A stretch of 64,000 nucleotides of DNA from a virus. The notes beneath the pieces were generated by a model, which searched no databases, was not told the DNA's origin, and saw only the letters and a list, made by a program, of their open reading frames with translations. The position numbers and the translations under genes were made by a program. The stretch is from the IMG/VR virus record IMGVR_UViG_3300049202_000001; one strand, given 5' to 3'. Below, one piece after another: positions 23,770 through 58,542 of the stretch (within the stretch, counting starts at the first letter, position 1; each line of letters opens with the position of its first letter).

Positions 23770-24207
23770 TTAAGTAGCCAGTGGAACATCTACCAGTACC
23801 ATAAATTGCTGACGAATATCTGCATGCTTCCGAGCAAGCTCTTCAGTTTTTAGTGCAATTGCCAAGTCTTCTCGTTTTGCAAGTGTGCTAGAAATGAAGC
23901 TGCGTTCAGAAGGTGTCATCCAAGTGTCATTAATTGTGAAGTCATTTTTATCTTTTAAAAGACTCCTGAGCATCAAACTTGTGTGGGTACGGTGGTAATA
24001 TACCCGTACTTCGGTTCCGCTATATCTAGGCCCTTCGACAACTTTCCAGTCCTCCAACTTCAAAAGTGATGCGGCCAAAGACTTAACAGGCTCAGAAATG
24101 TCTTGAGTTTCCTCGTCTAGAATTTCTTCCAAGTCTGCTGCATATTCCAGAGTTAACTTTAGCTCCAACTCTGGAAATTTTGATTGTTTTGAAAGCCAAT
24201 TAAACAT
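23770..24207 (-). CDS. Hypothetical protein
   Basis: ATG at 24207 preceded by GAAGGAGG and overlapping the macro-gene stop (TGATG). The track start at 24225 is less likely. Confidence 0.55.
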   Translation of the reverse strand: MFNWLSKQSKFPELELKLTLEYAADLEEILDEETQDISEPVKSLAASLLKLEDWKVVEGPRYSGTEVRVYYHRTHTSLMLRSLLKDKNDFTINDTWMTPSERSFISSTLAKREDLAIALKTEELARKHADIRQQFMVLVDVPLAT

Positions 24208-24686
24208 CAATCCTCCTTCAGCCACAACGTAGCGTCTACATCATGGAACACAGCTTGAAAGATAGCAGTGAGACGCTTCACGTCACCACCGCCCAGCCCA
24301 CCGCCAATCATCGGTAGGTAGACAGGAAGGTTGTCAGCTAGTGCTACATCTCGCACAGATTCTAGAGCCTTAATTACAGCGACATAGCTAACATATTGCC
24401 TACCGTCACGTCCATAGTTCTCTTGGGTAATAGCATTGCAAACAATCACTGAGGTAATGTTTGTCTTCTTCACAAACTGAGTAGAACCTAAGTCAAAACC
24501 GAAGTCGTTGTACTCTTGCTTGTAAGCTTCAAACGCATGCGGGTAGAGCTTCTTGACGAGAGCTGCTACGCCACTGCCCATCACACCTTTTGCGTTACAA
24601 CCGTGAACGAAGATAACTCCTTCTCCAGCTTCATGTCTCTTCAGAAGTTCGTTGAATACATCACCAGATTCAATTTTAAGTGGCAT
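24207..24686 (-). CDS. Macro domain protein (ADP-ribose binding/hydrolase)
   Basis: Motifs HGCNAKGVMGSGVA and PMIGGGLGGG fit the macro-domain ADP-ribose pocket (NxxGxMGxGIA ... IGxGxxG). Confidence 0.7.
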   Translation of the reverse strand: MPLKIESGDVFNELLKRHEAGEGVIFVHGCNAKGVMGSGVAALVKKLYPHAFEAYKQEYNDFGFDLGSTQFVKKTNITSVIVCNAITQENYGRDGRQYVSYVAVIKALESVRDVALADNLPVYLPMIGGGLGGGDVKRLTAIFQAVFHDVDATLWLKED

Positions 24687-25131: not shown

Positions 25132-26502
25132 TTAAGCAACGTAGTGACGCTGCCCCTTTTGAGAATGTGGGCCTGCATCATAAGCTTTCTTGCCTGCTTG
25201 CTTGGCATAGGCACGGGCTTGGTCACGAGTAGCAAAGAACGTGCTCTGCACACCATGAGGCATATGATAGCGAACACGTGCACCGTTACCAGCCGTACCC
25301 AGTGGCAGGATTGCCAGAGGCTTCACAGGGGCTACCGAAACAGCAGGTACAGGCTTCTTCGATGCTACAGGTGAAGAAGTAGGCTTGCCAGTTGCAGGAG
25401 CCTGAGCCAATACAGGCACAACAGGAGCGTTGTTCTGACCAGCGTAGCGGGTCAAATCAGCCTGCGTTACAGGACGCCCTTTCTCTGCCCAGTACAGAAT
25501 ACCAGTACCAGCTACCAGCTTACGATTCACCGACTCCGATTGAATGAAGATGTCATATTCCCCGTTGCCGTGGTTAGGGTGGATACGAGCATTGTTCACG
25601 GTATCCAGACCCAGCATCTTACGAGCATCAGGGCCAGCATACACTTTGCCAGTGGACTTCTCGCGGATCAGAATCAGCTTCGAAGGAGAAACCTTCGGCT
25701 CAGTTTTAGTGAGCTGGTAGAACGCACCACCAATCAGGTATTCAGTACGCTTCGACAGAATGAAGTCACGAATCTGGGCACCATCGTGGAATTGATCCAC
25801 TACGTACAGCGAAGTTTTAGCACTGATGTCCACCAGAGCCGAAGTGTTCACAGCCGACGTGTTGGTGTAGAACACGTTAGACGATTGAGCACCAGCCGAA
25901 CGAGCGGAGAAGTAGGTGTTCATTGCTTGTGCAGTAGCCGCAGTGGACTTCTCCATACCAGCAGAAGTAGTTTCCCATTCCTGAATGTTATCAGCCGGGA
26001 TGCCCAGATTCATAACAGTGCTACGATGACCAGAAGGCACGCGGACAACGAAAGTCCAACGACCTGTACGTTGAACTGCTTCAATCTTCTGACGCAGGGA
26101 CTGTGCAGTGTGAATCCGCGAACTGCACTCTTCACCGTCAGTAGTAGTCATGACGAGGAACGATACGTGAGAGTCGTTTGCATCTGGCAGCGATTGGAAC
26201 AGATCGATCATGTTTGCGATACCGTCGTACAGAGGAGTACCGCCCGGAGTAGGCCAGTCAACGACAGGCTTCAGCACGTGAGGATTCGACACAACGACTT
26301 GACGCGTTACTTCAGAGTCACGCGGATAACCGAAAGCCACCACCGATACGACAGTATCCAGCATTTCACGGGTGGCTGCTTCCTTCACAGTAGTGATGGT
26401 AGAGTTGTAGTCTTTAGTTGCTGCACGAGCACGAACGCCGCGCATGCTGCCAGAGTGGTCATTAACGAAGCCAATGTAGTTCTTAGGTTGTTTTTGATTC
26501 AT
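25132..26502 (-). CDS. von Willebrand factor type A (vWA) domain protein
   Basis: MIDAS motif DHSGSM near the N-terminus plus a downstream TTDGEE. 456 aa with an unassigned C-terminal half. Confidence 0.7.
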   Translation of the reverse strand: MNQKQPKNYIGFVNDHSGSMRGVRARAATKDYNSTITTVKEAATREMLDTVVSVVAFGYPRDSEVTRQVVVSNPHVLKPVVDWPTPGGTPLYDGIANMIDLFQSLPDANDSHVSFLVMTTTDGEECSSRIHTAQSLRQKIEAVQRTGRWTFVVRVPSGHRSTVMNLGIPADNIQEWETTSAGMEKSTAATAQAMNTYFSARSAGAQSSNVFYTNTSAVNTSALVDISAKTSLYVVDQFHDGAQIRDFILSKRTEYLIGGAFYQLTKTEPKVSPSKLILIREKSTGKVYAGPDARKMLGLDTVNNARIHPNHGNGEYDIFIQSESVNRKLVAGTGILYWAEKGRPVTQADLTRYAGQNNAPVVPVLAQAPATGKPTSSPVASKKPVPAVSVAPVKPLAILPLGTAGNGARVRYHMPHGVQSTFFATRDQARAYAKQAGKKAYDAGPHSQKGQRHYVA

Positions 26503-26523
26503 TGTTATTTCTCCTTAGTTAGT

Positions 26524-26778
26524 TTAATTGATAGTGCTATTACGTTTTAGTTCTGCCGCTTTGAACACATCACGGACGAACATGCATCGAGACTGAGTAT
26601 TCTCCAAGTAGAAGGAGCGACCGATGTAATCCCCGGACATGGTGTAAGCAAGTACAGTGGAATCATCAATCACCTCTTCTACTCTGAAAACTGTAAGCAG
26701 TGCTTCGTAGTTTTCAATATCAGAGAACGCTACAACATCGCCAGCATAGAGCCTTTTACCGAAGATGTCGAGTGCCAT
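26524..26778 (-). CDS. Hypothetical protein
   Basis: 84-aa ORF tightly packed between the NAMPT-like and vWA genes. Confidence 0.55.
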   Translation of the reverse strand: MALDIFGKRLYAGDVVAFSDIENYEALLTVFRVEEVIDDSTVLAYTMSGDYIGRSFYLENTQSRCMFVRDVFKAAELKRNSTIN

Positions 26779-26781
26779 AGT

Positions 26782-28434
26782 TTATTGCTTCAGGCGTGCT
26801 GCAATTTCTGCAAACGTTTGGGTGTTGACAGCTTCACCGTCCATGAACACAGTGCGGAGTTCACCTCGCCGTTCTTCAATCTCGCCTTGCTTGTCATACA
26901 GGACAAACTTACCATCCTCCAGTTCGACACGTAGAAGGCCAGTAGCAGACTTTTTCATGCCATCCCCAGTAGCAGGGTCTTTCTGAATATCCCGTGCACC
27001 GCCGTCTACTTGGCCCCACGTCGCTTTCACGGCCATACCGAAGGTATCACGAGTGATATACTGGTAGGTGTACGAGCCAACGCCGAACACAATGTTACCA
27101 GCACTAAAGCCTTTGTCCATCAAGCGTTGCAGAATTTCTTCAGCACGTCTCAACGTGATGCTGTCACCATAGATCAGGCCGACACGTTGGTTCAGAGTCT
27201 TGTAACCCTTCTCCGTCATGTCACCACCAAACACGTCCCACAGGCATTCGACTGCGCCCTTCACTTCGTGCTCTGGTACTTCACGACCGAGGATGAGACC
27301 GAAGTGCTGGCTGGGGCCGAATTCAAACACTTTACCGAAGATACGCACCGCATCATACTCGTCTTCCAACTTGTACGAATTTTCAACGCTCACAAACACA
27401 CGTCCGTCTTCCGACTGTTTGAAATTTGCTTCCGAGATGTCTTTGACACGCAGGCCCGCGACAATCTTCACAGGATCGCCCGAGTCAGGACGGAACACAA
27501 CTTTCGCCATGCCCAGACCGTTCGGGGTACGGTTCAGGATGTCTTGACGCAGCACAGCGGCAAACTCTGTAATCACTTTCCAGAAGTCCCACGTATCCGA
27601 GACGATGGACACGATGCCCGAAGGGTAGACATCCTTGATTAGACGGCGGAACGTGCGAATCTCGCTGTCTTTGCCACCCATGCACATTACGGAGTGTTCC
27701 GTGGCAGGTACGGAGCCAGCTACCAGTTCCTTCGTAACGTCAGCACCGTAGTACTCTTCCAGATAATCCACAGCCGGAAGGGTATCAGTGCCACGCGAGA
27801 TGAACAGATGAGCAGCACCAGCCTTAGCGGCACTCTGCCAGCCACACATACCACGCATCGAGAAGTCATGAATCTGCCAGTCAGCAAATTCTTTAGACGA
27901 ACCCGTGAGTTCCACGTATTTGTTCAGAATACGACGGTATTCGTAAGTAATGGTAGCTACGGTGATTTGTTGCCACAGCTCGTCCGACAGGACAGTTTCC
28001 AGATAATTCGTCAGCCAATAAAACTGAGGCAAAGTGTTACGAATCGTCAGGAACGGAACTTTAATATCTACACGACTACCTTCAGGCAGGGCTTTGATGA
28101 TGATAGGCAGATAGCCCAAATCATGCAGAGCTGCAATATGATCGGTGCGTACTGCGTTCTCACCTAGGAACGTATCACAGCGACGTTTGTACTCAGCAAT
28201 CACTTCGTCCTTTGGACGCTTGAAGAAGTGTTCGTTCCACGCTTCAATCAGGAACTCTTGGACGAAGCCTCGCAAGCCAACGAATACAACTTTGTTGTCG
28301 AACATGTCGCCCATATTAGCGTGAGCAGCACTACGAGCTGTCAGATTGGAATACACATAATCGGTGCCTTCCGGGTACTGGTCGATGTGACCTAGCTTGT
28401 AGCTATCCAGAATCAGATGTGGTTTGATTTTCAT
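26782..28434 (-). CDS. nadV: Nicotinamide phosphoribosyltransferase-like enzyme (NAMPT/NadV or NARP1 Namat-type)
   Basis: 550 aa. The overall pattern, including DSGDPV, YGDSITL, FGVGSY and KDPATGDGMKKSATG, matches the NAMPT family (type II PRTase). Confidence 0.8.
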   Translation of the reverse strand: MKIKPHLILDSYKLGHIDQYPEGTDYVYSNLTARSAAHANMGDMFDNKVVFVGLRGFVQEFLIEAWNEHFFKRPKDEVIAEYKRRCDTFLGENAVRTDHIAALHDLGYLPIIIKALPEGSRVDIKVPFLTIRNTLPQFYWLTNYLETVLSDELWQQITVATITYEYRRILNKYVELTGSSKEFADWQIHDFSMRGMCGWQSAAKAGAAHLFISRGTDTLPAVDYLEEYYGADVTKELVAGSVPATEHSVMCMGGKDSEIRTFRRLIKDVYPSGIVSIVSDTWDFWKVITEFAAVLRQDILNRTPNGLGMAKVVFRPDSGDPVKIVAGLRVKDISEANFKQSEDGRVFVSVENSYKLEDEYDAVRIFGKVFEFGPSQHFGLILGREVPEHEVKGAVECLWDVFGGDMTEKGYKTLNQRVGLIYGDSITLRRAEEILQRLMDKGFSAGNIVFGVGSYTYQYITRDTFGMAVKATWGQVDGGARDIQKDPATGDGMKKSATGLLRVELEDGKFVLYDKQGEIEERRGELRTVFMDGEAVNTQTFAEIAARLKQ

Positions 28435-28461
28435 TTGTTCTCCTTTGGTTGTTAAGTAAGA

Positions 28462-29040
28462 CTACATAGTAGCAGATAGTTTTACGAATGTACAGCCCCT
28501 GTGTGACTTTCTTTTGCCAAGCAAGACTGCGGATATAAGGCGGAAGTCAAAGCCCTTCCGCTTCATATCTTCGTTACCGTACATGGTTGTCACGAGTTTT
28601 CCAGCTTTGTCATATACCTCCACAGCCCCGGTGAATGCGAAAGCTTTAGCAGCGAACGGGTGATCAACAAATAGGCCGCTATCAATGGCATGATCTTTGT
28701 TCTCTTCGTTAGTCGCCCACTCTAAGTTGCTGATAATGTTATTAGTCTTATCCCCGTCTTTGTGGTTTACTTGAGGTTTGTCGTCGGGGTTAGGAACGAA
28801 AGCCTCTGCTACTAGCCGGTGTACCTTTCTAGTGAACTTACTGCCGCCCACGCTGAGGCGTACGCGAGAGTATCCCCGCTTGTCAGGGTGGGGAGCTAAC
28901 ACTACCCCACCAATAACACGACTTGGCTTGTTATCACTGAAAGTCAGGAGCCTTACAACACTTCTGACCTTCCCATGATTACTAACCTCGTAAAACCCTT
29001 CGAAGCCATTACAGCTTTTCCAAGATTCCGTAGGTGTCAT
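28462..29040 (-). CDS. HNH homing endonuclease (NUMOD4 + HNH_3)
   Basis: NUMOD4-like WKSCNGFEGFYEVSNHGKVRS. HNH_3-like HRLVAEAFVPNP...VNHKDGDKTNN...LEWAT. Its start overlaps the Prs-like 3' end by 32 nt. Confidence 0.85.
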   Translation of the reverse strand: MTPTESWKSCNGFEGFYEVSNHGKVRSVVRLLTFSDNKPSRVIGGVVLAPHPDKRGYSRVRLSVGGSKFTRKVHRLVAEAFVPNPDDKPQVNHKDGDKTNNIISNLEWATNEENKDHAIDSGLFVDHPFAAKAFAFTGAVEVYDKAGKLVTTMYGNEDMKRKGFDFRLISAVLLGKRKSHRGCTFVKLSATM

Positions 29041-29824
29041 TCGCCTTGTCCCTTCTCATATCATTCGCCACGTAAATCTTATCCAGTACACCGTGGAACT
29101 TGTCCACGCCAGCGCTGAACAGTCCGTGGGTAACGTACAAGCAAATCTTCCCAGTTGTGAGCTTGCGTAGCTCTGTAGCAAGAGCCACAAACGTCCCGCC
29201 AGCATCAAGAATGTCGTCCACGATTAGGAAGTCTTGGTTGCCGATGTGTGGGATACCAACGGTGCTGGTAGCTACAATCTTACCGCTAGCAAGGTCGCGT
29301 ACCTTGCTAGCTTGTACAAAACCAACGAAGCCGCCCTCTTGTGCAAATTTGTGTGCTTTCTTCGATGCTCCTGAGTCAGGAGCTACGATGATAGTGTTAG
29401 CAATGTTTTTACGCAACTGTGGACGGCTCGACATCGCCCATTGTTCATGTACTACAGTGTTATTGAACAAAGCAGCAGTAACATCTGAATGCGGGTCGAG
29501 GATGCAGACGGCTTCAAAGTTTAAGGCATTGATGAAGTCTGCTACTACTTTAATGGACAAGCTTTCACCTTCATTGCAAACACGGTCTTGACGAGCGTAA
29601 GGCGCATATCCCATCCACAGTTTCAACTTCTTAGTCGGAAACTTCCTGCGGCAGGCATCAGCCAATAAGGCTAGATCGAATAGATCACCGTTATTCTCGA
29701 ACGCCAGTTCCAGAGTTAGGTCAGGTTCCAATGGAGAGTTCATGGTTACACGAATGCACGACTCACCTCCGGGGAACGTTGTCTTGGTGAAGCCTTCGGG
29801 GTAGCCTACAATATGAACGCTCAT
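29009..29824 (-). CDS. Ribose-phosphate pyrophosphokinase-like enzyme (Prs-like; possible ADPR-PP synthetase)
   Basis: Prs hallmarks YAPYARQDR and the PRPP loop LIVDDILDAGGT. At 271 aa it is shorter than cellular Prs. Confidence 0.75.
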   Translation of the reverse strand: MSVHIVGYPEGFTKTTFPGGESCIRVTMNSPLEPDLTLELAFENNGDLFDLALLADACRRKFPTKKLKLWMGYAPYARQDRVCNEGESLSIKVVADFINALNFEAVCILDPHSDVTAALFNNTVVHEQWAMSSRPQLRKNIANTIIVAPDSGASKKAHKFAQEGGFVGFVQASKVRDLASGKIVATSTVGIPHIGNQDFLIVDDILDAGGTFVALATELRKLTTGKICLYVTHGLFSAGVDKFHGVLDKIYVANDMRRDKANDTYGILEKL

Positions 29825-31209: not shown

Positions 31210-31695
31210 TTAGCTATTTTCTGTCAAGTAGTTTGGAAAAATAATTTCGCATTTGTCCTGCAACAGATCGAGAGCATCAGCACTGATACGGAGCGGATAC
31301 AGAATAGCCCGCTTCTCTAGAGCAATCATCCGGTGAAGCATGTCCAAACTTCCGGTACTCTCTCCGTCCCATACAACCAACGCACAATCTGCCACCTGTG
31401 CCATTTCCTCGTTACGCCAGTGACCCGCCAACAAATTAAATGGCTTGCCATTCTTATTGTAACGAACGACAGCGCCGGCAGCTTTGATATCGTCCCAGTT
31501 CGCAGGCTTAGCGATTGGCTTCTTCAGTCCAGCTTTCTCTGCGAAGATGAGTCCATGCTTATCTGGGCCTTCAGCAAGCCCAGAGACGACGACAATACTC
31601 TTCCCGTATTGATGCCACAAACCGCTGTTGATAATAGCTTGACGCGTGATGTTATAGTCTTTAATGCTACGAGAGCCTGCGATAATTAGCTTCAT
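31210..31695 (-). CDS. SLOG-fold nucleotide-binding protein (DUF2493/YspA-like)
   Basis: N-terminal MKLIIAGSRS, then VVSGLAEGPD and VVWDGESTGS, fit the Rossmann-like SLOG/DUF2493 pattern. Confidence 0.55.
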   Translation of the reverse strand: MKLIIAGSRSIKDYNITRQAIINSGLWHQYGKSIVVVSGLAEGPDKHGLIFAEKAGLKKPIAKPANWDDIKAAGAVVRYNKNGKPFNLLAGHWRNEEMAQVADCALVVWDGESTGSLDMLHRMIALEKRAILYPLRISADALDLLQDKCEIIFPNYLTENS

Positions 31696-44536: not shown

Positions 44537-44730
44537 ATTTCACAGATGCCTACCATCAAGAAAATCGCAACGGAAACAGTAGACATGCAAAGCCCACCGA
44601 TCATTGTTTTGTGAGACATATGCGAAGTTCTAAAATCGAAGAGCAAGGCGTTCGCAAGCATGCTAATAAGGGCCAGTGGAAGTCCGCTCAGTAGTAAAGT
44701 ACCGCTGACCTTCATAAGGAACTCTACCAT
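44524..44730 (-). CDS. Small two-TM membrane protein (possible SPFH partner)
   Basis: 68 aa with two hydrophobic helices. Starts 2 nt after the SPFH gene stop. Confidence 0.5.
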   Translation of the reverse strand: MVEFLMKVSGTLLLSGLPLALISMLANALLFDFRTSHMSHKTMIGGLCMSTVSVAIFLMVGICEIWTR

Positions 44731-44731
44731 A

Positions 44732-45523
44732 TTATTTCCCTGCGTTCACGATACCTTTGAAGTCGTAAGGAACGACGATGGTCTGAACCTTACCTTCCGC
44801 GATGCCTTCAGCAATCTTCATTTGAGCCTGAGCATTCATGTAGCTGATGGCACCTGCATTGGCGTTCAGGGCAGCGATACGTTCAGCTTCTTTCTTCGCA
44901 GTGCTCACTTGTACTTCTTTAGCTGCCAGCTCGGCTTTAGCCTGTACCAGTTGGTTAGCAGCATTGCTTACAGCAGCAGATGGAGCAATACTCTTCACTT
45001 GCACTTGAGATACGAGCAGGGAACCATCCAGCTTCTCACCTTTCAAAGTTTCCCTGATTTGGTCAAGAAGTTTCGCTTCAATTTCGGTACGAGAATCATT
45101 CATCTGAAGCGAAGGGTACTCCCGTGCCACTTTAAATACAGCATTACGTACAGTGGTTTGAAGGTACGAGTGCATCAGATAAGTAGTACCATCATCTGCC
45201 GAAGCGTGGAAGCTGTGGCTCTTATTGGTGTACAGATCAGAGACGCTGCTAGGGCTGATGTTGTACACCACCGTTACATCGAAGTCGGACATGGTGCTGT
45301 TGTCCGCTGCCAGTGGACTCAGGTTTTGTACGTCTACAGAAATCTCTCGTACTGGAAACTTCAGGATGTCACCTACAATCGTTTGATTGAAGGAACCAGC
45401 TACACGTTCCGTAGCTTCTACAGTTTTATCGAAGTTAACACGAAGGCCAACCTCGCCGGTGTTGATGCGGGTACAGCCGGTGAAAGCGATGGCAAATGCC
45501 AGTGCTGCAAAAATTTTCTTCAT
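44732..45523 (-). CDS. SPFH/Band 7 (prohibitin-like) lipoprotein
   Basis: Signal peptide MKKIFAALAFAIAFTGC with a lipobox-like Cys, an SPFH-like beta/alpha core, then an Ala-rich coiled coil. Confidence 0.6.
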   Translation of the reverse strand: MKKIFAALAFAIAFTGCTRINTGEVGLRVNFDKTVEATERVAGSFNQTIVGDILKFPVREISVDVQNLSPLAADNSTMSDFDVTVVYNISPSSVSDLYTNKSHSFHASADDGTTYLMHSYLQTTVRNAVFKVAREYPSLQMNDSRTEIEAKLLDQIRETLKGEKLDGSLLVSQVQVKSIAPSAAVSNAANQLVQAKAELAAKEVQVSTAKKEAERIAALNANAGAISYMNAQAQMKIAEGIAEGKVQTIVVPYDFKGIVNAGK

Positions 45524-45555
45524 TTATTTCTCCTTATGTTGGTTAGTGAGGTAGT

Positions 45556-45584
45556 ATTATCTACCTTTTTCGTCGTAGTGTCAA
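45556..45584 (-). promoter_or_regulatory. Sigma70-type promoter
   Basis: Minus strand: TTGACA, 17-nt spacer, GATAAT. Confidence 0.55.
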
Positions 45585-45865
45585 GCGTTTTCTGCGAACA
45601 TTTTATCCTGTAGCTGCGACATTACACGCAGCTCTAGCTGAGTGAAATCTGCATTAATTAGGCACTTAGCTACAGGATCACGAACACGTTCCATATTTTT
45701 CACCAATACGTTGGTAACGTAGTTCTGCATCATGTCTCGTTGACGTTTTTCGAAGGCATCCAGTTCTTCCAATTCCTTCTTACGTACTTCTACATCTGCG
45801 TCAATATGACGGAAAGCTGCTTCTTGACGTTGTTCGAAGGTGCCACGATTCTTTGCTTGGCCCAT
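45581..45865 (-). CDS. Hypothetical protein
   Basis: 94-aa charged ORF. Confidence 0.5.
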   Translation of the reverse strand: MGQAKNRGTFEQRQEAAFRHIDADVEVRKKELEELDAFEKRQRDMMQNYVTNVLVKNMERVRDPVAKCLINADFTQLELRVMSQLQDKMFAENA

Positions 45866-52084: not shown

Positions 52085-52618
52085 TTAGTTTCCTTTCCCA
52101 GTAAGTTCGTAAAACCGTTGATTGTACTCCCATTCAGCATGTGCAGGCGACCACGGATCAATCTTGATCTTGTACGGCTGCACGCCACGCAGAATCTCCC
52201 ATTGTTGAGCCGCTGGAGGCATCAATTGAACCACTTCAGTAGCCAGCATACGAAGGTCTGCTTCTTTCGTTTCTGGGAGCATTGGAAAGGTAGTGCCAAA
52301 TCGCTCTGCAACGGCCTTCTCAACACGTTTCTCAATCACTTGATACTCAGGCAGCATCATCTTTAAAGGTGTTGCTACGTCTCCCATGAAAGCTTCAGAC
52401 GTATCGTGCAACAAGAACTCCAATGCCATTTTTGGGTCTTTGAATTGCAAGCTTCCAAGCACACAATGTTGTGCTACCGAGTACGGGAAACTGGTGTGTC
52501 CTGTGTAACGATTGATACGGCTCAAGGCCAACGCAACATCTTCAATCGTGAACTCCGATGTTTCCGGCGACATGAAGTTGAAGTATTTGCCGCTGTACAT
52601 CATAATCTCTGGTGCCAT
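52085..52618 (-). CDS. HD-domain phosphohydrolase (5'-deoxynucleotidase/dNTPase-like)
   Basis: H...HD...D pattern: SVAQHCVL, LLHDTSEAFMGDV. Confidence 0.7.
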   Translation of the reverse strand: MAPEIMMYSGKYFNFMSPETSEFTIEDVALALSRINRYTGHTSFPYSVAQHCVLGSLQFKDPKMALEFLLHDTSEAFMGDVATPLKMMLPEYQVIEKRVEKAVAERFGTTFPMLPETKEADLRMLATEVVQLMPPAAQQWEILRGVQPYKIKIDPWSPAHAEWEYNQRFYELTGKGN

Positions 52619-53880
52619 TATTTCGTCTCCATCGTATAGTGTTTAGGGTTCTTACCTTCGTGTAGCTCATTTAGGTGCTTCACAATGCTACTCAAAGCTT
52701 CACGTTCTTTCAGATACCCCGATTGCTTGCACCGATCATCAATCAGCGTTCCAGCAGCACGTGCTTCAAGAATAATAGCAACGTTAGCCAGTACACCTCC
52801 CAAGTTAGGAACTCCGTCTTTGGGATCAAATTCTTCACCAGCAACCCATGCAGCCAAATGACGCATTGCTCCGTCAATGTAGATGGACGCTTCCACAGGC
52901 GTATTGGCGTAGTTAGCCTTGCCATACTTCCCTGCCCCGTTGTAGAAGGCCAGAGCACCATAAGCGCTACCCAAGCTGCTCCACATACTCAAAGGAATGC
53001 TCTGAACGCCAAACTGTTTCTTAGGATTGGTGTCCAGTTGAATTACATTGTTATCGTTACGTTGAGTTTCGAAATCATGCACAGGCACAGCTACGTCCTT
53101 GCCCAAGTCCCATGCCACGTCTTGCACCATATCTTCCATCGAAACGACAGATGTTTTCGCTGGCTTTTCTGGCTGCAACGTGTATGCCACAACTTGATAC
53201 TCTTCGTCCACGGCTACGCCGTCTGGAGAGTGAGTGCCAAATGTGACAATATCATCGGCTTCCCGCGTCGAGCCGCCTCGGAGCCTTACCCGTGCGGCAT
53301 TAGTAGGTGCAGGGTCTTTAGCAGGATCATGGGCAATCCAACCATCCTTAGATTTCTTGTGTCCTACAACCTTGTAGCTGACGATATCTCCAGCTTCTCC
53401 GGTGTCAGTCCATCGCAAGTGTCGTGCTTCTCCTTGCGCTTTTCGTCCCGTAGCCATTTTGTAGGCTACAACAGCATCTCCACGTACAGGGCAACCAATG
53501 AAACTGTTAGGCGTAGCCGTCTTATCCCATTTACGGGCCTTAGCACGTTTCTTTTGTGCTTTGCTCTCTTCACGCTTGATCTTACGTACTGTTTCAGCGG
53601 CTTCTAGCACGTAGTTACGAGATACTTCAGTGTAGTCGTCGTAGCCGAAGTCCTCTGGAACGATATCAAAACCTTCCGCGTAAGAAATTTCACAGTTCCC
53701 GTTTACGCGAAGATAGGCTGCATCGGTGAGTCCTCGTACTTGACGCTTACCTTCGTCTTGGTAAGCCCATCGGAAGCCCATCTTAAAGAATGCTTTCTCG
53801 ATGTCCGTAGTATCCTCTCCCGCAACACGGATGAAGCTGTTCTTGAACTGACTGGTAATCTTATTAGTTGCTACGCTCAT
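52618..53880 (-). CDS. Two-part protein; C-terminal domain resembles MazZ-type dATP/dGTP diphosphohydrolase N-terminal family
   Basis: C-terminal GAGKYGKANY...AMRHLAAWVAGEEFDPKDGVPNLGGVLAN recalls the GxKYGxxNW...RHL...GExxDxESGxxHL signature. The N-terminal 300 aa are unassigned. Confidence 0.4.
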   Translation of the reverse strand: MSVATNKITSQFKNSFIRVAGEDTTDIEKAFFKMGFRWAYQDEGKRQVRGLTDAAYLRVNGNCEISYAEGFDIVPEDFGYDDYTEVSRNYVLEAAETVRKIKREESKAQKKRAKARKWDKTATPNSFIGCPVRGDAVVAYKMATGRKAQGEARHLRWTDTGEAGDIVSYKVVGHKKSKDGWIAHDPAKDPAPTNAARVRLRGGSTREADDIVTFGTHSPDGVAVDEEYQVVAYTLQPEKPAKTSVVSMEDMVQDVAWDLGKDVAVPVHDFETQRNDNNVIQLDTNPKKQFGVQSIPLSMWSSLGSAYGALAFYNGAGKYGKANYANTPVEASIYIDGAMRHLAAWVAGEEFDPKDGVPNLGGVLANVAIILEARAAGTLIDDRCKQSGYLKEREALSSIVKHLNELHEGKNPKHYTMETK

Positions 53881-55696: not shown

Positions 55697-56088
55697 CAGT
55701 AGTCTAATTTCCTTGTAACGTGGTATTCATCGTAGATGCCCTTAGGCTCCTTGTGCTGCTCAGCAGACCGGATATGCCACTCCACTGCATTACACTTGTA
55801 AGGCTCCAAGTCTTCTTCAACCCACGCATGGGAAATCTGCATTCCAGAGATACAACTTGTGTCTTCCAAGGACACAAATCGAATGCTCCCTCCGTCCTCA
55901 TGTTTAGCAGTTCTGGTGAACACATTGAAAGAGAAGCCGTTAGGCTTTCCTACAAGGTTAATCAACGTATGCCATGCGTTCTGAGCCTTGCTCCATGTAC
56001 TGAAGGCGAACAGCACCTTAGAGTTAGGATCAAACTTTGCAAGCATCAGTGCGTATTGAAGCCTGTACTCAAGCGCTTTCTTCCTCAT
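55696..56088 (-). CDS. Hypothetical protein
   Basis: ATG 56088 (MRKKALEY...). The longer track ORF runs antisense-free through the thyX 3' end. 131 aa. Confidence 0.5.
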   Translation of the reverse strand: MRKKALEYRLQYALMLAKFDPNSKVLFAFSTWSKAQNAWHTLINLVGKPNGFSFNVFTRTAKHEDGGSIRFVSLEDTSCISGMQISHAWVEEDLEPYKCNAVEWHIRSAEQHKEPKGIYDEYHVTRKLDY

Positions 56089-57049
56089 AGTTCTCTCCCT
56101 TAATCGTCTTACGATACTGAATCCAGCCACGGAAATTGCCCGACCACAATCTGCATTTATTGTCCATGTGGGAAACACCATGTTCCCACGCGTTAGGAGG
56201 TGGAAGTCCGGGGCGTCGTTCCATCGGAGTAGCACAGTGTTCCAGTGCAGAAGCATGCTTTTTATCGCTGCCTACCAGACGCTCGTAAAGCTCAATGCTC
56301 TTTTCCAGATCATAACCTTCATTGCGATACGAGACAGCGGCACAACGAGCACACGACACTTTAATTGCGTCTTCTAGTGTGTACTCCGTAAACGCCTTGG
56401 CAGGTTCTGATTCATAGGGGTGAGACGAGAAGCTACCATAAATGCGTCGTTCGTCATTCCCACGTATTACGTCAATATACGGAAGATGCCACTCGCCCGC
56501 CTTCAGCAGTTCAGGCTTAGACACATCCTTAGCCTCACGCATCACACGTGCCAATTCGTCAATCGTAGGGTCTGCTGCCAAGTCATCACGAAGCCAGAAG
56601 AAGTTGTCCCACTCTGTTCCGCTGATAACGGTTTTCTGCATCTGCCAAGGTTCCAATAGACGGTTGTACACTTGCTTGTGGTAGCCAGCTTCGTAGAACT
56701 TTCTTGCAAACGCAATGGCTGTGTCTTTAGCTGTTTCCCATGCTGATTCAGGAGAACGTTGTGCTTCTCCAAACATAACCGGAACGGTGTAATCTTCTCC
56801 TTTATCCTGCATACCAGCTTGATTTGCACCGAAGCGAACAGGACGACCTGAGAGTTGTGTCAGCATCTTTTCAAACGGCACAGCACGGCTACTAAAACTG
56901 TTACGCGACTTATCCCGGTGCGTGTTCAGTTCAGCCAGAATCAAACGCGGATATTCGATTTCAAACGTCAGTAAGCGTACCCCTGCTTCGCTAATACTGT
57001 CGGCTAAGATGGTAGCCTTGATGCCGCATTTACCTTCTACTGTAATCAT
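56069..57049 (-). CDS. thyX: Flavin-dependent thymidylate synthase-like (ThyX family), long form
   Basis: Motif THRDKSRNSFSSRA fits the ThyX signature (R)HRxxSxxxxSxR. At 326 aa it is longer than typical ThyX. Confidence 0.7.
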   Translation of the reverse strand: MITVEGKCGIKATILADSISEAGVRLLTFEIEYPRLILAELNTHRDKSRNSFSSRAVPFEKMLTQLSGRPVRFGANQAGMQDKGEDYTVPVMFGEAQRSPESAWETAKDTAIAFARKFYEAGYHKQVYNRLLEPWQMQKTVISGTEWDNFFWLRDDLAADPTIDELARVMREAKDVSKPELLKAGEWHLPYIDVIRGNDERRIYGSFSSHPYESEPAKAFTEYTLEDAIKVSCARCAAVSYRNEGYDLEKSIELYERLVGSDKKHASALEHCATPMERRPGLPPPNAWEHGVSHMDNKCRLWSGNFRGWIQYRKTIKGENYEEESA

Positions 57050-57506: not shown

Positions 57507-57943
57507 TTGTGTTTCTCCTTGAAAAATATATGTTTTCCGATGCGTACGCATCGGGTCATTTTGGTTGCCCATGCTGGCCTAACGTAGGTAGCGTGGAAGT
57601 GAGTGCATTGTACAGCAACAGGCTTCATCTTGGCAACCTGTATGAAGCGTTGTAACGCTTCCTTATTAGTTAGCGTCACGTTGTACACTTTACGTTCAGA
57701 ATATCCTGAGAATTGCCTTGGCGCAGACACTACGTCACAGGCACTTTTCCCTGTCTTCTTCATACGCCGCAATACTACGTCTAAAACAGCTCTAGCGCCC
57801 TTCAGCGACTCTCCACGGGCTTCATCATGCACAACCCAAGCCATACAACGCCAAGGCTCAGGAGGCTTATATTCAAGCCGTGGAGGTATGGAAAGCTGAG
57901 AGCACGACATCATCAGAAGTAGTGCTACTATAATTTTTCTCAT
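57503..57943 (-). CDS. Secreted cell-wall hydrolase, SleB-like (Hydrolase_2)
   Basis: Signal peptide MRKIIVALLLMMSC. Motif VVHDEARGESLKGARAVLDVVLRR...VVSAPRQFSG matches the SleB-family signature. Confidence 0.65.
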   Translation of the reverse strand: MRKIIVALLLMMSCSQLSIPPRLEYKPPEPWRCMAWVVHDEARGESLKGARAVLDVVLRRMKKTGKSACDVVSAPRQFSGYSERKVYNVTLTNKEALQRFIQVAKMKPVAVQCTHFHATYVRPAWATKMTRCVRIGKHIFFKEKHK

Positions 57944-58542
57944 GTTCCGTGCCTCTCCGTGTAGCCCGCACCTTGAGTATTTAGTTCACTAATTATAGCA
58001 TCCCTGTACACACAAGCTTGCTTAAAAGCTGGAAGAAGTCCTAAAGAAGCTACACTGAAATATTTAGATTTTCGCTTTCCTTTTAAATCATTCCATTGTG
58101 CTTTGCAGTACAGATTTCCGGCTTTATTAGTATGAAACCCTACTCCAGTGACTCCTGAAGAATTGTTAGAAAACGTCCCTTTGTTACGAGAGTTTTGAAC
58201 ATTCCCAACTAGCCTAAGATTCCATGATTTGTTGTTACTTCTGTCCCCACTTTCATGGTCAATTTCATCACCTTCGCCTAGTTCAACCTGATACACAATA
58301 GAATACACTATTCTATGACACTTTAGCTGTCTGCCTCTATGGCGTGTAATCCAGTAGCCAGTAGCTTCATGGAAATGCCCTACTTCGTCACCTTTTCGGT
58401 TAATCACTGTAGTATGCTTTCTTCCTCGGAACTTGTCCTTTCGTAGTCTCAGACAACTTTTACTTGTTTCGTCGTAGTAGAAAGCCGCACTGAGTTCCTT
58501 CAACGATATTTCAGTGCTCGCTCTCATATCACCCCTTAGCAA
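57940..58542 (-). CDS. HNH homing endonuclease with AP2-like DNA-binding domain
   Basis: HRIVYSIV...IDHESGDRSNN...NLRLV (HNH_3), then SGVTGVGF...YCKAQW...KSKYF (AP2-like). Confidence 0.8.
   Translation of the reverse strand: MLRGDMRASTEISLKELSAAFYYDETSKSCLRLRKDKFRGRKHTTVINRKGDEVGHFHEATGYWITRHRGRQLKCHRIVYSIVYQVELGEGDEIDHESGDRSNNKSWNLRLVGNVQNSRNKGTFSNNSSGVTGVGFHTNKAGNLYCKAQWNDLKGKRKSKYFSVASLGLLPAFKQACVYRDAIISELNTQGAGYTERHGT

What the first reader, a model, noticed from the sequence alone, without database searches (positions are those of the whole stretch)
26782..29824. Prs-like + NAMPT-like gene pair: candidate phage NAD+ reconstitution module with no NMNAT in the window
Seen in sequence: a 550-aa NAMPT-family ORF (26782-28434) and a short 271-aa Prs-family ORF (29009-29824; YAPYARQDR and the VDDILDAGGT PRPP loop) lie on the same strand, separated only by an HNH endonuclease gene. 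Established knowledge: phages counter NAD+-depleting defences (Thoeris, DSR, SIR2/SEFIR-type and similar) by rebuilding NAD+. Two routes have been described. One is NAMPT plus NMNAT. The other, called NARP1, uses a Prs-homologous ADPR-pyrophosphate synthetase plus a NAMPT-homologous transferase, and rebuilds NAD+ directly from ADP-ribose and nicotinamide. Inference: I see no NMNAT-like (NadR/NadD/NadM) ORF anywhere in these 64 kb, and the Prs homologue is truncated relative to cellular Prs. The NARP1-type reading is therefore at least as likely as classical PRPP/NMN salvage.
Basis: partly seen in the sequence, partly recalled or inferred. Interest (0 to 1): 0.75.

Follow-up and report, generated by a model that had tools for sequence, protein, structure and literature searches.

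The report
Phage NARP1 NAD+ rebuilding operon
This uncultivated 89-kb phage carries an ordinary copy of the already described two-enzyme NARP1 pathway, which rebuilds NAD+ from ADP-ribose and nicotinamide to defeat NAD+-depleting bacterial defences; here a selfish homing-endonuclease gene splits the operon.

Summary
On the minus strand lie a 271-aa Prs-like gene (29009-29824), a NUMOD4/HNH endonuclease gene (28462-29040) and a 550-aa NAMPT-like gene (26782-28434).

The NAMPT-like protein falls in the Namat clade, not the PRPP-using Nampt clade:
- 100% bootstrap support
- 488 bits to the SPbetaL1 Namat structure against 207 to human NAMPT
- the aromatic 'selectivity clamp' motif GSYTYQYITRD is intact

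The Prs-like protein has the Adps hallmarks. It lacks the C-terminal alpha11-alpha12 module, carries the Adps-type motifs, and fails every Prs equivalog cut-off.

I closed the whole genome in silico (89,228 bp) and found no NMNAT anywhere.

The HNH gene is a mobile insertion. Most relatives lack it. A related HNH gene (61% identical) sits at the same adps 3' end in another lineage, and the window's adps is mosaic from codon 184 onward.

A Poa1p/TARG1-class Macro protein (24207-24686) lies three called genes downstream of namat. It belongs to the family of the NARP1-associated phosphatase Adpp, so a loosely linked NARP1-AP is plausible.

Verdict: a real and well-supported NARP1 operon. It is a new member of a known kind and of low surprise.

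The parts
29009..29824 (-). adps: 271-aa PRPS-like ADP-ribose pyrophosphate synthetase candidate (first NARP1 enzyme)
   Evidence: Family hits: Pfam Prs domains and phrog_619 at 254 bits, within the range of verified Adps (248-287). NCBIfam TIGR01251 gives 122 bits, like ICP1 (98) and SPbetaL1 (106) Adps, against 423 for E. coli Prs. All Prs equivalog cut-offs are failed. The alignment shows the catalytic Lys and the acceptor residues R87, H121, D161, D212, D213 and D216 (ICP1 numbering). It also shows F221, no C-terminal alpha11-alpha12 and no N-terminal Prs helix.
29012..29275 (-). Mosaic 3' third of adps (aa 184-271), of different ancestry from the 5' two thirds
   Evidence: aa 1-183 are closest to P0002 (80%). 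aa 184-271 are closest to P0029 and P0028 (71-73%), which are only 49-52% identical overall (overall identities). Nucleotide similarity to the nearest relatives stops at window 29276 and resumes at 28445.
28462..29040 (-). Free-standing NUMOD4 + HNH_3 homing endonuclease gene inserted between adps and namat
   Evidence: Pfam and PHROG HNH hits. The gene is absent from the same slot in six relatives (L012/L013, L025, L026, L027, L030). That slot is empty or holds small unrelated ORFs, such as a 121-128-aa lipoprotein-like ORF. A 61% identical HNH overlaps the adps 3' end in the same way in contig L031.
26782..28434 (-). namat: 550-aa nicotinamide ADP-ribose transferase candidate (second NARP1 enzyme)
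   Evidence: PDB: 488 bits to SPbetaL1 Namat 9W5X/9W5W against about 207 to mammalian NAMPT. blastp: 365-555 bits to Namat-type proteins against 107-138 to KVP40-type Nampts. NJ tree: Namat clade at 100% bootstrap. Catalytic F189, D215 and R306 equivalents are kept, as is the ATEHS motif.
27046..27078 (-). Selectivity-clamp helix motif GSYTYQYITRD (aa 453-463)
   Evidence: Matches the Namat signature GS-X-phi-X-phi-X-phi-TRD with aromatic X (PMC12774641). Nampts of NARP2 phages have GGGLLQxxxRD. The PRPP-type 9ke8 has GAQTYQRNTRD.
27265..27453 (-). 63-aa insertion in Namat (aa 328-390), after the RPDSGDPVKIxAG strand
   Evidence: Absent from SPbetaL1, ICP1 and Acinetobacter proteins. Insertions sit at the same site in the Thalassavirus (Cody), Justusliebigvirus and close-relative Namats. 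The Felixounavirus and Pakpunavirus Namats are similarly long (562-593 aa), but their insertion site was not inspected. It is a common variable feature of the family.
24207..24686 (-). Macro-domain protein (159 aa), candidate ADPR-1''-phosphate phosphatase (Adpp-like)
   Evidence: Pfam Macro. phrog_335 'phosphatase' at 1e-36, the same family as the Macro gene inside the Thalassavirus NARP1 operon. hhalign to that protein gives 98.7% probability. AlphaFold model pLDDT 95; Foldseek hits are BT1257, TARG1, DarG and Poa1p with TM 0.72-0.81. Conserved downstream of namat in all relatives examined. Directly adjacent to Adps/Namat in Denitromonas and four other bacterial loci.
25132..26778 (-). Two syntenic ORFs between namat and the Macro gene (84 aa and 456 aa), function unknown; probably not part of the pathway
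   Evidence: The 456-aa ORF hits phrog_26613 (unknown function) at 7e-76 and has no Pfam hit. Its homologues in Caulobacter Cr30, Mycobacterium Myrna and Streptomyces phages show no NARP1 linkage. Present in all close relatives.
31210..31695 (-). SLOG (YAcAr/DprA-like) protein; context only, part of an NAD/ADPR-centred gene neighbourhood
   Evidence: Weak Pfam hits to DNA_processg_A and YAcAr. The homologue in L030 hits YAcAr, next to NADAR and DUF4326 genes just upstream of adps. NADAR/DUF4326 genes sit at the same place in other relatives.

Best explanation
The pair is a NARP1 operon.

Proposed mechanism. When a host defence (SIR2, TIR, SEFIR and similar effectors) cleaves NAD+ into ADP-ribose and nicotinamide, the 271-aa PRPS-like enzyme (Adps) transfers the beta,gamma-pyrophosphate of ATP to the distal ribose of ADP-ribose, giving ADPR-PP. 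The 550-aa NAMPT-like enzyme (Namat) then displaces that pyrophosphate with nicotinamide and regenerates NAD+ directly. No NMN intermediate and no NMNAT are needed.

What is shown here: family membership, the diagnostic motifs, operon linkage, and the absence of an NMNAT from the whole genome. The enzymatic specificities are inferred from characterised homologues.

The HNH gene between the two genes is a selfish homing-endonuclease insertion. It leaves both reading frames and the namat ribosome-binding site intact, and it brought in a foreign adps 3' end by co-conversion.

The Macro protein three called genes downstream of namat probably dephosphorylates ADPR-1''-phosphate to ADP-ribose, as Adpp does. 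That would extend the pathway to RES-type defences (NARP1-AP). This last step is the least certain; I put it at about 0.5.
For: Namat
- 4.4e-145 and 488 bits to the SPbetaL1 Namat crystal structures 9W5X/9W5W, against about 207 bits to mammalian NAMPT (PDB identities from PMC12774641).
- 100% bootstrap separation from NARP2-type Nampts. The window protein nests among Namats from SPbetaL1, from ICP1, from a Felixounavirus (same genus as Bas63) and from a Thalassavirus (same genus as Gary).
- The clamp-helix triad is Y/Y/Y and the catalytic F189, D215 and R306 equivalents are kept.

Adps
- C-terminal alpha11-alpha12 is missing, which is the 'defining signature' in PMC13586617.
- The motifs PHSDVTxAL, K-x-R-D-x-x-[ST]-G-x-I, DDIxD[GA]GxTF and YVTHG[IL]FS are shared with verified Adps and differ in E. 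coli Prs.
- Its NCBIfam scores sit with verified Adps and far below the Prs equivalog cut-offs.

Linkage
- adps and namat are directly adjacent in one relative. Osterman et al. report that 97% of Adps-clade genes have a Namat nearby.

No NMNAT
- Pfam scans.
- The genome was closed to 89,228 bp and searched with phage NadM sequences, an HMM run with --max, and HxGH motif patterns. Nothing was found.

Homing endonuclease
-.

Macro / Adpp
-, and 10.64898/2026.01.28.702374.
Against: - No enzymology: substrate preference is inferred only.
- The variable clamp loop (SCL) has Ala where SPbetaL1 has the stacking Arg40, and the loop is 5 residues longer. One of the two clamp elements is therefore not verified.
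- Namat-type enzymes also make NMN from PRPP in vitro, so some classical activity is likely.
- The nearest cellular relatives (52-60% identity) are bacterial 'NadV' proteins, historically assigned to PRPP-dependent salvage.
- The Adps tree was rooted with a single canonical Prs, so clade membership rests mainly on motifs, scores and linkage.
- The Macro gene lies outside the two-gene distance used to define NARP1-AP. Its fold equally resembles the ADP-ribosyl hydrolases TARG1 and DarG.
Confidence: 0.85

Rival explanations
1. Classical salvage. The Prs-like enzyme makes PRPP, the NAMPT-like enzyme makes NMN from PRPP and nicotinamide, and a host NMNAT (NadR, NadD after PncC, or NadM) finishes NAD+. 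This would be a NARP2-like route that borrows its last step from the host.
For: - Annotation pipelines name both proteins this way. TIGR01251 scores 122 against a cut-off of 113, and NF006629 scores 553 against 405.
- Namat-clade enzymes retain PRPP-to-NMN activity in vitro.
- The closest cellular homologues are 'prs-nadV' operons, assigned to Nam salvage II in older work.
- A relatively close structure, 9ke8 (385 bits), is a PRPP-type NadV.
Against: - The protein sits in the Namat clade at 100% bootstrap, away from the KVP40-type Nampts that prefer PRPP.
- It has the full aromatic clamp helix that 9ke8 and the Nampts lack.
- The Prs-like protein fails all Prs equivalog cut-offs and lacks the regulatory C-terminus.
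- The SPbetaL1 homologue gave no measurable product in the PRPP-synthetase assay.
- 94% of phages with a KVP40-type Nampt carry their own NMNAT. This genome has none.
Confidence: 0.08
2. A dual-purpose module. The enzymes use both ADP-ribose/ADPR-PP and ribose-5-P/PRPP at comparable rates. They would boost NAD+ during every infection, not only under immune attack.
For: - The clamp loop lacks the Arg/Lys/Tyr stacking residue at the aligned position.
- The window clade is sister to bacterial housekeeping-type prs-nadV-nrtR operons.
- Clamp mutants of Namat keep NMN synthesis.
Against: - The clamp helix, the more conserved and diagnostic element, is intact.
- Bacterial prs-nadV operons are derepressed specifically by ADP-ribose, not by PRPP or ribose-5-P, which fits an ADPR-consuming role for that lineage too.
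- Verified Adps did not use ribose-5-phosphate.
Confidence: 0.05
3. A decaying operon. The HNH insertion and the replaced adps 3' end have uncoupled or inactivated the pathway, so the genes are remnants.
For: - The HNH ORF overlaps the adps stop region.
- The last 88 residues of Adps have foreign ancestry, and the PP-loop reads DDILDAGGTF where close relatives have DDICDGGRTF.
Against: - Both ORFs are full length with all catalytic residues.
- namat keeps a strong ribosome-binding site, and no terminator-like site lies between the genes.
- The identical arrangement is found on many independent contigs.
- The foreign 3' end comes from functional-looking adps genes.
Confidence: 0.02

Closest known systems
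NARP1 (Adps + Namat) of Bacillus phage SPbetaL1, E. coli phage Bas63 and Vibrio phage ICP1 (Osterman et al. 2024; PMC12774641; PMC13586617)
   Same: - Two-gene module: a short PRPS-like gene upstream of a NAMPT-like gene.
- Namat clamp-helix motif and catalytic core.
- Adps truncation and catalytic residues.
- No NMNAT in the genome.
   Different: - Only 30-40% (Adps) and 38-45% (Namat) identical to these proteins.
- A homing-endonuclease gene sits between the two genes.
- The clamp loop is longer and lacks the aligned stacking Arg.
- A 63-aa insertion is present in Namat. The Thalassavirus and Justusliebigvirus Namats have an insertion at that site; the SPbetaL1 and ICP1 Namats do not. The Felixounavirus (Bas63-type) Namat is similarly long, but its insertion site was not inspected.
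NARP1-AP (Adps-Adpp-Namat) of Vibrio phage Gary (10.64898/2026.01.28.702374)
   Same: A 159-aa Poa1p-class Macro protein of the same PHROG family (phrog_335) is encoded near the NARP1 genes. It is conserved there in all relatives.
   Different: The Macro gene is not inside the operon. It lies three called genes downstream of namat, possibly behind its own promoter-like site. It is only 28% identical to the Thalassavirus protein. Its phosphatase activity is untested.
Bacterial prs-nadV-nrtR operons (Rodionov et al. 2008, PMC2330246) and bacterial NARP1 of Paenibacillus foliorum (PMC12774641)
   Same: These are the closest cellular relatives of the window Namat (47-60% identity). They have the same aromatic clamp motif and an adjacent short Adps-like Prs paralogue.
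   Different: They are chromosomal and usually carry an ADPR-responsive NrtR regulator. They have no HNH gene, and most lack the Namat insertion.
NARP2 (Nampt + bifunctional NMNAT/Nudix) of Vibrio phage KVP40
   Same: A NAMPT-family enzyme is used to restore NAD+ during infection.
   Different: A different clade (27-32% identity) with a non-aromatic clamp region. It requires a phage NMNAT, which this genome lacks, and it has no Prs-like partner.
Free-standing homing endonuclease genes between conserved phage genes (for example mobE between nrdA and nrdB in T-even phages; from my own knowledge)
   Same: - An HNH-family gene wedged between two co-functional genes.
- Sporadic distribution among relatives.
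- Altered flanking sequence consistent with co-conversion.
   Different: The target here is the 3' end of an anti-defence gene (adps). Cleavage specificity is unknown.

Membership tests
Namat (NARP1 transferase) | Placement in the Namat clade, separate from PRPP-preferring Nampt | tested here: met
   NJ tree with 100% bootstrap. Bit scores of 365-555 to Namat-type proteins against 107-138 to Nampt-type. PDB: 488 against 207 bits.
Namat (NARP1 transferase) | Selectivity-clamp helix motif GS-X-phi-X-phi-X-phi-TRD with aromatic X | tested here: met
   GSYTYQYITRD at aa 453-463. Nampts have GGGLLQxxxRD, and 9ke8 has GAQTYQRNTRD.
Namat (NARP1 transferase) | Selectivity-clamp loop that provides a stacking Arg, Lys or Tyr | tested here: inconclusive
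   The aligned position of Arg40 is Ala. The loop is 5 residues longer and contains His and Met. The loop is variable in the family, and no structure was modelled.
Namat (NARP1 transferase) | Conserved Nampt-like catalytic core (F189, D215, R306, catalytic His) | tested here: met
   All are conserved in the alignment.
Namat (NARP1 transferase) | Preference for ADPR-PP over PRPP | not testable with these tools
   Needs enzyme assays.
Adps (NARP1 ADPR-PP synthetase) | PRPS-like fold with the catalytic Lys (K185 ICP1, K162 SPbetaL1) and acceptor residues R87, H121, D161, D212, D213, D216 | tested here: met
   All are conserved. These residues are also conserved in Prs, so they show competence rather than specificity.
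Adps (NARP1 ADPR-PP synthetase) | Loss of the C-terminal alpha11-alpha12 module of canonical PRPS | tested here: met
   271 aa. The protein ends where ICP1 and SPbetaL1 Adps end. E. coli Prs continues for roughly 30 more residues.
Adps (NARP1 ADPR-PP synthetase) | Adps-type PP-loop and lid (conserved DDIxDGxxSF/TF; Phe221) | tested here: met
   DDILDAGGTF with Phe at the 221 position; E. coli has DDMIDTGGTL. Position 223 is variable among Adps.
Adps (NARP1 ADPR-PP synthetase) | Phylogenetic placement in the Adps clade, apart from cellular Prs | tested here: inconclusive
   The protein nests among verified Adps, with a long branch to E. coli Prs. Only one canonical outgroup was available and internal support is weak. 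NCBIfam scores sit with verified Adps.
Adps (NARP1 ADPR-PP synthetase) | A Namat gene within 10 genes | tested here: met
   namat is the next gene but one. Only the HNH gene intervenes.
NARP2 (Nampt + NMNAT) | A phage-encoded NMNAT (NadM/NadR type) | tested here: not met
   None found in the closed 89,228-bp genome.
Canonical ribose-phosphate pyrophosphokinase (Prs) | Score above the NCBIfam equivalog cut-offs | tested here: not met
   Best equivalog score is 110 against a cut-off of 296. Only the broad subfamily model TIGR01251 is passed (122 against 113).
NARP1-AP (with Adpp phosphatase) | A Poa1p-like Macro-domain protein | tested here: met
   Pfam Macro and phrog_335. hhalign 98.7% to the Thalassavirus operon Macro. 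Foldseek to Poa1p gives TM 0.75-0.78, but TARG1 and DarG match equally well.
NARP1-AP (with Adpp phosphatase) | The Macro gene lies within two genes of the NARP1 genes (the authors' operational criterion) | tested here: not met
   Three called genes (84, 456 and 40 aa) lie between namat and the Macro gene.
NARP1-AP (with Adpp phosphatase) | ADPR-1''-phosphate phosphatase activity | not testable with these tools
   Needs an assay. The catalytic Lys of DarG is replaced by an invariant Gln, which argues against that glycohydrolase chemistry. TARG1 was not aligned residue by residue.
HNH homing endonuclease | HNH nuclease plus a DNA-binding module, sporadic presence at a fixed site, and mosaic flanks | tested here: met
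   NUMOD4 + HNH_3. Absent in six relatives and present at the same adps 3' end in L031. Mosaic adps. Cleavage was not tested.

The most novel reading that the evidence does not exclude
The window's NARP1 belongs to a lineage whose nearest relatives are chromosomal, ADP-ribose-inducible prs-nadV-nrtR operons found in many bacterial phyla. All 80 loci sampled carry the Namat clamp motif and 61 of the 80 have an Adps-like neighbour.

If those cellular enzymes are true Adps/Namat, then NARP1 is not essentially phage-specific. It would be an old, widespread cellular ADPR-recycling pathway that phages captured. In this phage it would also have become the target of a homing endonuclease that shuffles adps alleles between phages.
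Probability: 0.35. Interest if true: 0.5.

Novelty: new member of a known kind. Interest (0 to 1): 0.2.

Why it matters
The finding adds a divergent NARP1 operon from an uncultivated phage lineage. Its proteins are 30-45% identical to the characterised enzymes, and its major capsid protein is most like those of Limnohabitans, Curvibacter and Pseudomonas phages.

It shows three things:
- The published sequence signatures (clamp helix, Adps truncation) classify such distant members cleanly.
- The operon tolerates a homing-endonuclease insertion between its two genes.
- The Adpp-type Macro gene can travel with NARP1 without being inside the operon, so counts of NARP1-AP based on a two-gene distance may be underestimates.

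For annotation, the two genes should not be called Prs and NadV/Nampt.

None of this changes the current understanding of NAD+ reconstitution.

Tried and rejected
- Megablast of the region against GenBank phages found nothing, so no close cultured relative exists.
- The Adps structures of PMC13586617 are not in the PDB sequence copy. The best hit was Sulfolobus Prs, so no structure-level Adps test was possible.
- PHROG and NF006629 profiles do not separate Namat from Nampt, or Adps from Prs, well enough to use as tests.
- The promoter and terminator scan was not above chance: 15 sites against 13 expected, and 9 against 7.7. It served only to note that no terminator-like site lies between the three genes.
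The Adps tree therefore kept a single canonical outgroup.
- Apparent 'NMNAT' neighbours of bacterial homologues were NrtR-like Nudix-wHTH proteins matching only the Nudix half of the NadM queries.
- The 456-aa ORF between namat and the Macro gene was considered as an accessory NARP1 component. I rejected it because its homologues occur in unrelated large phages without NARP1 linkage.
- The 121-128-aa ORF found between adps and namat in relatives is, where I read its sequence (L012, L013, L031), a lipoprotein-like low-complexity protein with no counterpart in the window.
- The 63-aa Namat insertion was considered as a novelty. I rejected it because insertions occur at the same site in other Namats (Thalassavirus, Justusliebigvirus and the close relatives).
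- Foldseek could not tell a Poa1p-type phosphatase from a TARG1- or DarG-type hydrolase for the Macro protein.

Full report
**1. Observation**

The window holds three consecutive minus-strand ORFs at exactly the coordinates given:
- 29009-29824, 271 aa
- 28462-29040, 192 aa
- 26782-28434, 550 aa

Pfam assigns them as follows. The 271-aa protein matches the Prs domains Pribosyltran_N, Pribosyltran and Pribosyl_synth, each just above its cut-off. The 192-aa protein matches NUMOD4 + HNH_3. The 550-aa protein matches NAPRTase + NAMPT_N.

The HNH ORF starts 32 nt inside the end of the Prs-like ORF. It stops 27 nt before the NAMPT-like start codon, which follows an AAGGAG ribosome-binding site. No terminator-like site lies between the three genes. 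The promoter and terminator scan as a whole was not above chance.

**2. What phage this is**

Megablast finds no close relative in GenBank phages.

The exact Prs-like protein occurs on 13 contigs, 12 of them 50-200 kb long. By overlapping three retrieved loci with the window at 100% identity, I closed the genome to a circle of 89,228 bp.

The major capsid protein is 53% identical to that of Limnohabitans phage DC31. It is 44-47% identical to those of Curvibacter and Pseudomonas phages with genomes of 84-95 kb.

The module sits at the distal end of the leftward block of replication and nucleotide-metabolism genes. That block includes RNR, ThyX, DNA polymerase, a primase-helicase and a ligase.

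**3. The NAMPT-like protein is a Namat**

- *PDB.* The best matches are 9W5X/9W5W at 4.4e-145 and 488 bits. These are the SPbetaL1 Namat structures (PMC12774641). Mammalian NAMPT scores about 207 bits and Xanthomonas-type Nampt 180-190.
- *Phage genomes.* tblastn identities are bimodal. Proteins from NARP1 phages are 35-52% identical (E below 1e-96). KVP40/T4-like Nampts are 26-33% identical (E about 1e-27).
- *Tree.* A bootstrapped NJ tree separates ten Namat-type sequences from five NARP2-type Nampts with 100% support. The window protein lies inside the group spanned by SPbetaL1, ICP1, a Felixounavirus (the genus of Bas63) and a Thalassavirus (the genus of Gary).
- *Signature motif.* The published Namat signature is GS-X-phi-X-phi-X-phi-TRD with aromatic X. 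These residues stack on the adenine of ADPR-PP. The window protein has GSYTYQYITRD. All NARP2-type proteins with a recognisable motif have GGGLLQxxxRD. The fairly close structure 9ke8 has GAQTYQRNTRD. That entry is probably the PRPP-type NadV of Haemophilus ducreyi, judging by the paper cited in PMC12143786.
- *Catalytic core.* The F189, D215 and R306 equivalents and the ATEHS histidine are conserved.
- *Unverified element.* The variable clamp loop is not verified. The aligned position of Arg40 is Ala, and the loop is five residues longer.
- *Insertion.* The 63-aa insertion (aa 328-390) lies at a site where the Thalassavirus, Justusliebigvirus and close-relative Namats also carry insertions. 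It is therefore not a peculiarity.

**4. The Prs-like protein is an Adps**

The protein is 30-40% identical to Adps of ICP1, SPbetaL1, Thalassavirus, Felixounavirus and Pakpunavirus. It is 28% identical to E. coli Prs (141, 88, 128, 121 and 139 bits against 75).

The alignment shows:
- The catalytic lysine of the beta-hairpin, and the residues R87, H121, D161, D212, D213 and D216 (ICP1 numbering, PMC13586617). Prs shares these.
- Features that set Adps apart. There is no C-terminal alpha11-alpha12 module, which the authors call a defining signature. There is no N-terminal Prs helix. The motifs DPHSDVTAAL, KVRDLASGKIV, DDILDAGGTF (with the Phe221 lid residue) and YVTHGLFS match verified Adps. 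E. coli Prs reads DLHAEQIQGF, KRRPRANVSQV, DDMIDTGGTL and YATHPIFS at those positions.

NCBIfam gives 122 bits for the broad model TIGR01251. ICP1 Adps scores 98, SPbetaL1 Adps 106 and E. coli Prs 423. The window protein fails every Prs equivalog cut-off.

The Adps tree had only one canonical outgroup, so I rate formal clade membership as inconclusive. Motifs, scores and linkage all agree.

**5. No NMNAT**

Pfam scans of all sizeable ORFs gave no cytidylyltransferase-family hit. Precomputed Pfam calls on the same DNA agree.

I took NadM-type NMNATs from two NARP2 phages, where they sit next to Nampt. I searched the six-frame translation of the closed genome with phmmer, with an HMM under --max, and with HxGH motif patterns. 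Nothing was significant. The two references find each other at 3e-55, which serves as the positive control.

This matches the report that no phage carries both NARP1 and NARP2.

**6. The HNH gene is a homing-endonuclease insertion**

In six relatives (Adps 49-73% identical) the slot between adps and namat holds no HNH gene. It is empty in L026. It holds a 121-128-aa ORF in L012, L013, L025 and L027 (followed by a further 73-aa ORF in L027). The L012 and L013 copies read as lipoprotein-like, low-complexity proteins.

Nucleotide similarity between the window and its nearest relatives stops at 29276 and resumes at 28445.

The window's Adps is mosaic. Residues 1-183 are closest to P0002 (80%). Residues 184-271 are closest to P0029 and P0028 (71-73%), which are otherwise distant.

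The P0029 contig carries a 61% identical NUMOD4-HNH gene that overlaps the adps 3' end in the same way.

Three features together are the standard signature of a free-standing homing endonuclease with co-conversion of flanking sequence:
- sporadic distribution among relatives
- a fixed insertion site
- an imported flank

Both NARP1 reading frames remain intact.

**7. The neighbourhood**

A 159-aa Macro protein (24207-24686) lies three called genes downstream of namat. A Macro-family gene of 157-164 aa is conserved downstream of namat in all relatives examined.

Evidence that it is Adpp-like:
- It belongs to phrog_335 'phosphatase'. So does the Macro gene inside the Thalassavirus Adps-Macro-Namat operon. 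hhalign to that protein gives 98.7% probability.
- A homologue lies two genes after namat in a Pakpunavirus.
- Homologues lie directly next to Adps/Namat in five bacterial loci, including the best bacterial match, Denitromonas (44% identity).

A confident AlphaFold model (pLDDT 95) matches BT1257, TARG1, DarG and Poa1p about equally well (TM 0.72-0.81). The catalytic lysine of DarG is replaced by an invariant glutamine.

Osterman et al. 2026 showed that such a Macro protein (Adpp) converts ADPR-1''-phosphate to ADP-ribose. That lets NARP1 overcome RES-domain defences. The window gene is a plausible Adpp, but it lies outside their two-gene criterion and is untested.

Upstream of adps lies a SLOG/YAcAr-like gene (31210-31695). 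Relatives carry NADAR and DUF4326 genes in that region. These families have been proposed to process ADP-ribose derivatives (PMC9503650). The region is therefore an NAD/ADPR-centred counter-defence neighbourhood.

**8. Relation to cellular genes**

The best 'phage' database hit (52%) is really an Acinetobacter chromosomal contig carrying prs-nadV-nrtR.

A scan of one genome per species found 125 bacterial stretches that encode relatives, of which the best 80 loci were kept. They are 47-60% identical and come from many phyla. Among the 80:
- all have the aromatic clamp motif
- 61 have an adjacent short Adps-like Prs paralogue
- 53 have an NrtR-like Nudix-wHTH gene
- only one has even a weak NMNAT domain

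NrtR repression of prs-nadV is relieved by ADP-ribose, not by PRPP or ribose-5-phosphate (PMC2330246). A bacterial pair from Paenibacillus has NARP1 activity.

This makes the cellular sister group look like NARP1 as well. It also keeps open the possibility that enzymes of this lineage use PRPP to some extent.

**9. Verdict**

The most likely mechanism is NARP1: ADP-ribose + ATP gives ADPR-PP, and ADPR-PP + nicotinamide gives NAD+. My confidence is about 0.85. Classical PRPP/NMN salvage finished by a host NMNAT is the main rival, at about 0.08.

The pathway is well described and common in phages (4.3% of genomes). This is a new, divergent member of a known kind. It has two minor twists: a homing endonuclease that splits the operon, and an unlinked Adpp-type Macro gene. 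Interest is low, at about 0.2.

Noticed in passing
L004 (CAKLQF020000015.1, labelled 'Acinetobacter phage MD-2021a'), 5099-8316: This record in the phage collection is an Acinetobacter chromosomal contig, with iron transport and efflux genes around the match. It carries prsA_2 - nadV - a gene annotated as bifunctional NMNAT/ADPR pyrophosphatase. That third gene is in fact an NrtR-type Nudix + winged-helix regulator (Pfam NrtR_WHD 5e-22). The NadV has the Namat clamp motif GSFTYNYLTRD.
   Followed up: yes
L032-L111 (80 bacterial genome loci): Namat-type 'NadV' genes with the aromatic clamp motif occur in many bacterial phyla. 61 of the 80 have an adjacent short Adps-like Prs and 53 of the 80 have an NrtR-like regulator. 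[quoted passage not shown]
   Followed up: partly
window 52085-53880 (-), with 56069-57049 (-): A 420-aa protein has a dATP/dGTP diphosphohydrolase N-terminal domain (PF18909, 5e-16). Directly downstream is a 177-aa HD/YfbR-like 5'-deoxynucleotidase, and a ThyX-like gene lies nearby. This gene set recalls nucleotide-pool editing in phages with modified bases. None of the ORFs scanned gave an adenylosuccinate-synthetase (PurZ-type) Pfam hit.
   Followed up: no
window 57940-58542 (-): A second HNH endonuclease gene (HNH_3 + AP2). It is 44% identical to an HNH gene that sits two genes upstream of adps in relative L013. Several homing-endonuclease families evidently move around these genomes.
   Followed up: partly
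window 31210-31695 (-), and L012/L013/L026/L027/L030 upstream of adps: A SLOG (YAcAr/DprA-like) gene lies in the window. NADAR and DUF4326 genes lie at the corresponding place in relatives. Together they form a variable cluster of predicted ADP-ribose-derivative-processing genes next to NARP1.
   Followed up: partly
PHROG family phrog_12872: The first 220 positions of this 547-position profile match Adps and the rest match Namat. Fused Adps-Namat proteins apparently exist in some phages.
   Followed up: no
window 25132-26502 (-): A 456-aa protein with a DxSxS-like motif near the N-terminus, possibly von Willebrand A-like. It has a low-complexity Pro/Ala/Val linker and a small C-terminal domain. 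It is conserved between namat and the Macro gene in all relatives. Its homologues are scattered in Caulobacter Cr30, Mycobacterium Myrna and Streptomyces phages. Function unknown.
   Followed up: partly
L028 13453-18112 (genome outside the window): The 25 kb outside the window encodes an RtcB RNA ligase, an HD_4 (RelA/SpoT-type hydrolase) protein and a serine recombinase (Resolvase). It also encodes two tandem 202-aa paralogues of unknown function that have very many metagenomic homologues.
   Followed up: no
window 44732-45523 (-) and 44660-45613 (+): An SPFH/Band 7 family protein (PF01145, 2e-19) is encoded on the minus strand. A 317-aa ORF with no family hit lies antisense to it and is probably a shadow ORF.
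   Followed up: no
L012 8856-9242, L013 8854-9234, L031 3847-4209: In relatives, the gene between adps and namat encodes a small protein with a lipoprotein signal (LxACG), a Gly/Ala-rich segment and a Thr/Arg-rich tail. It is absent from the window, where the HNH gene takes its place.
   Followed up: partly
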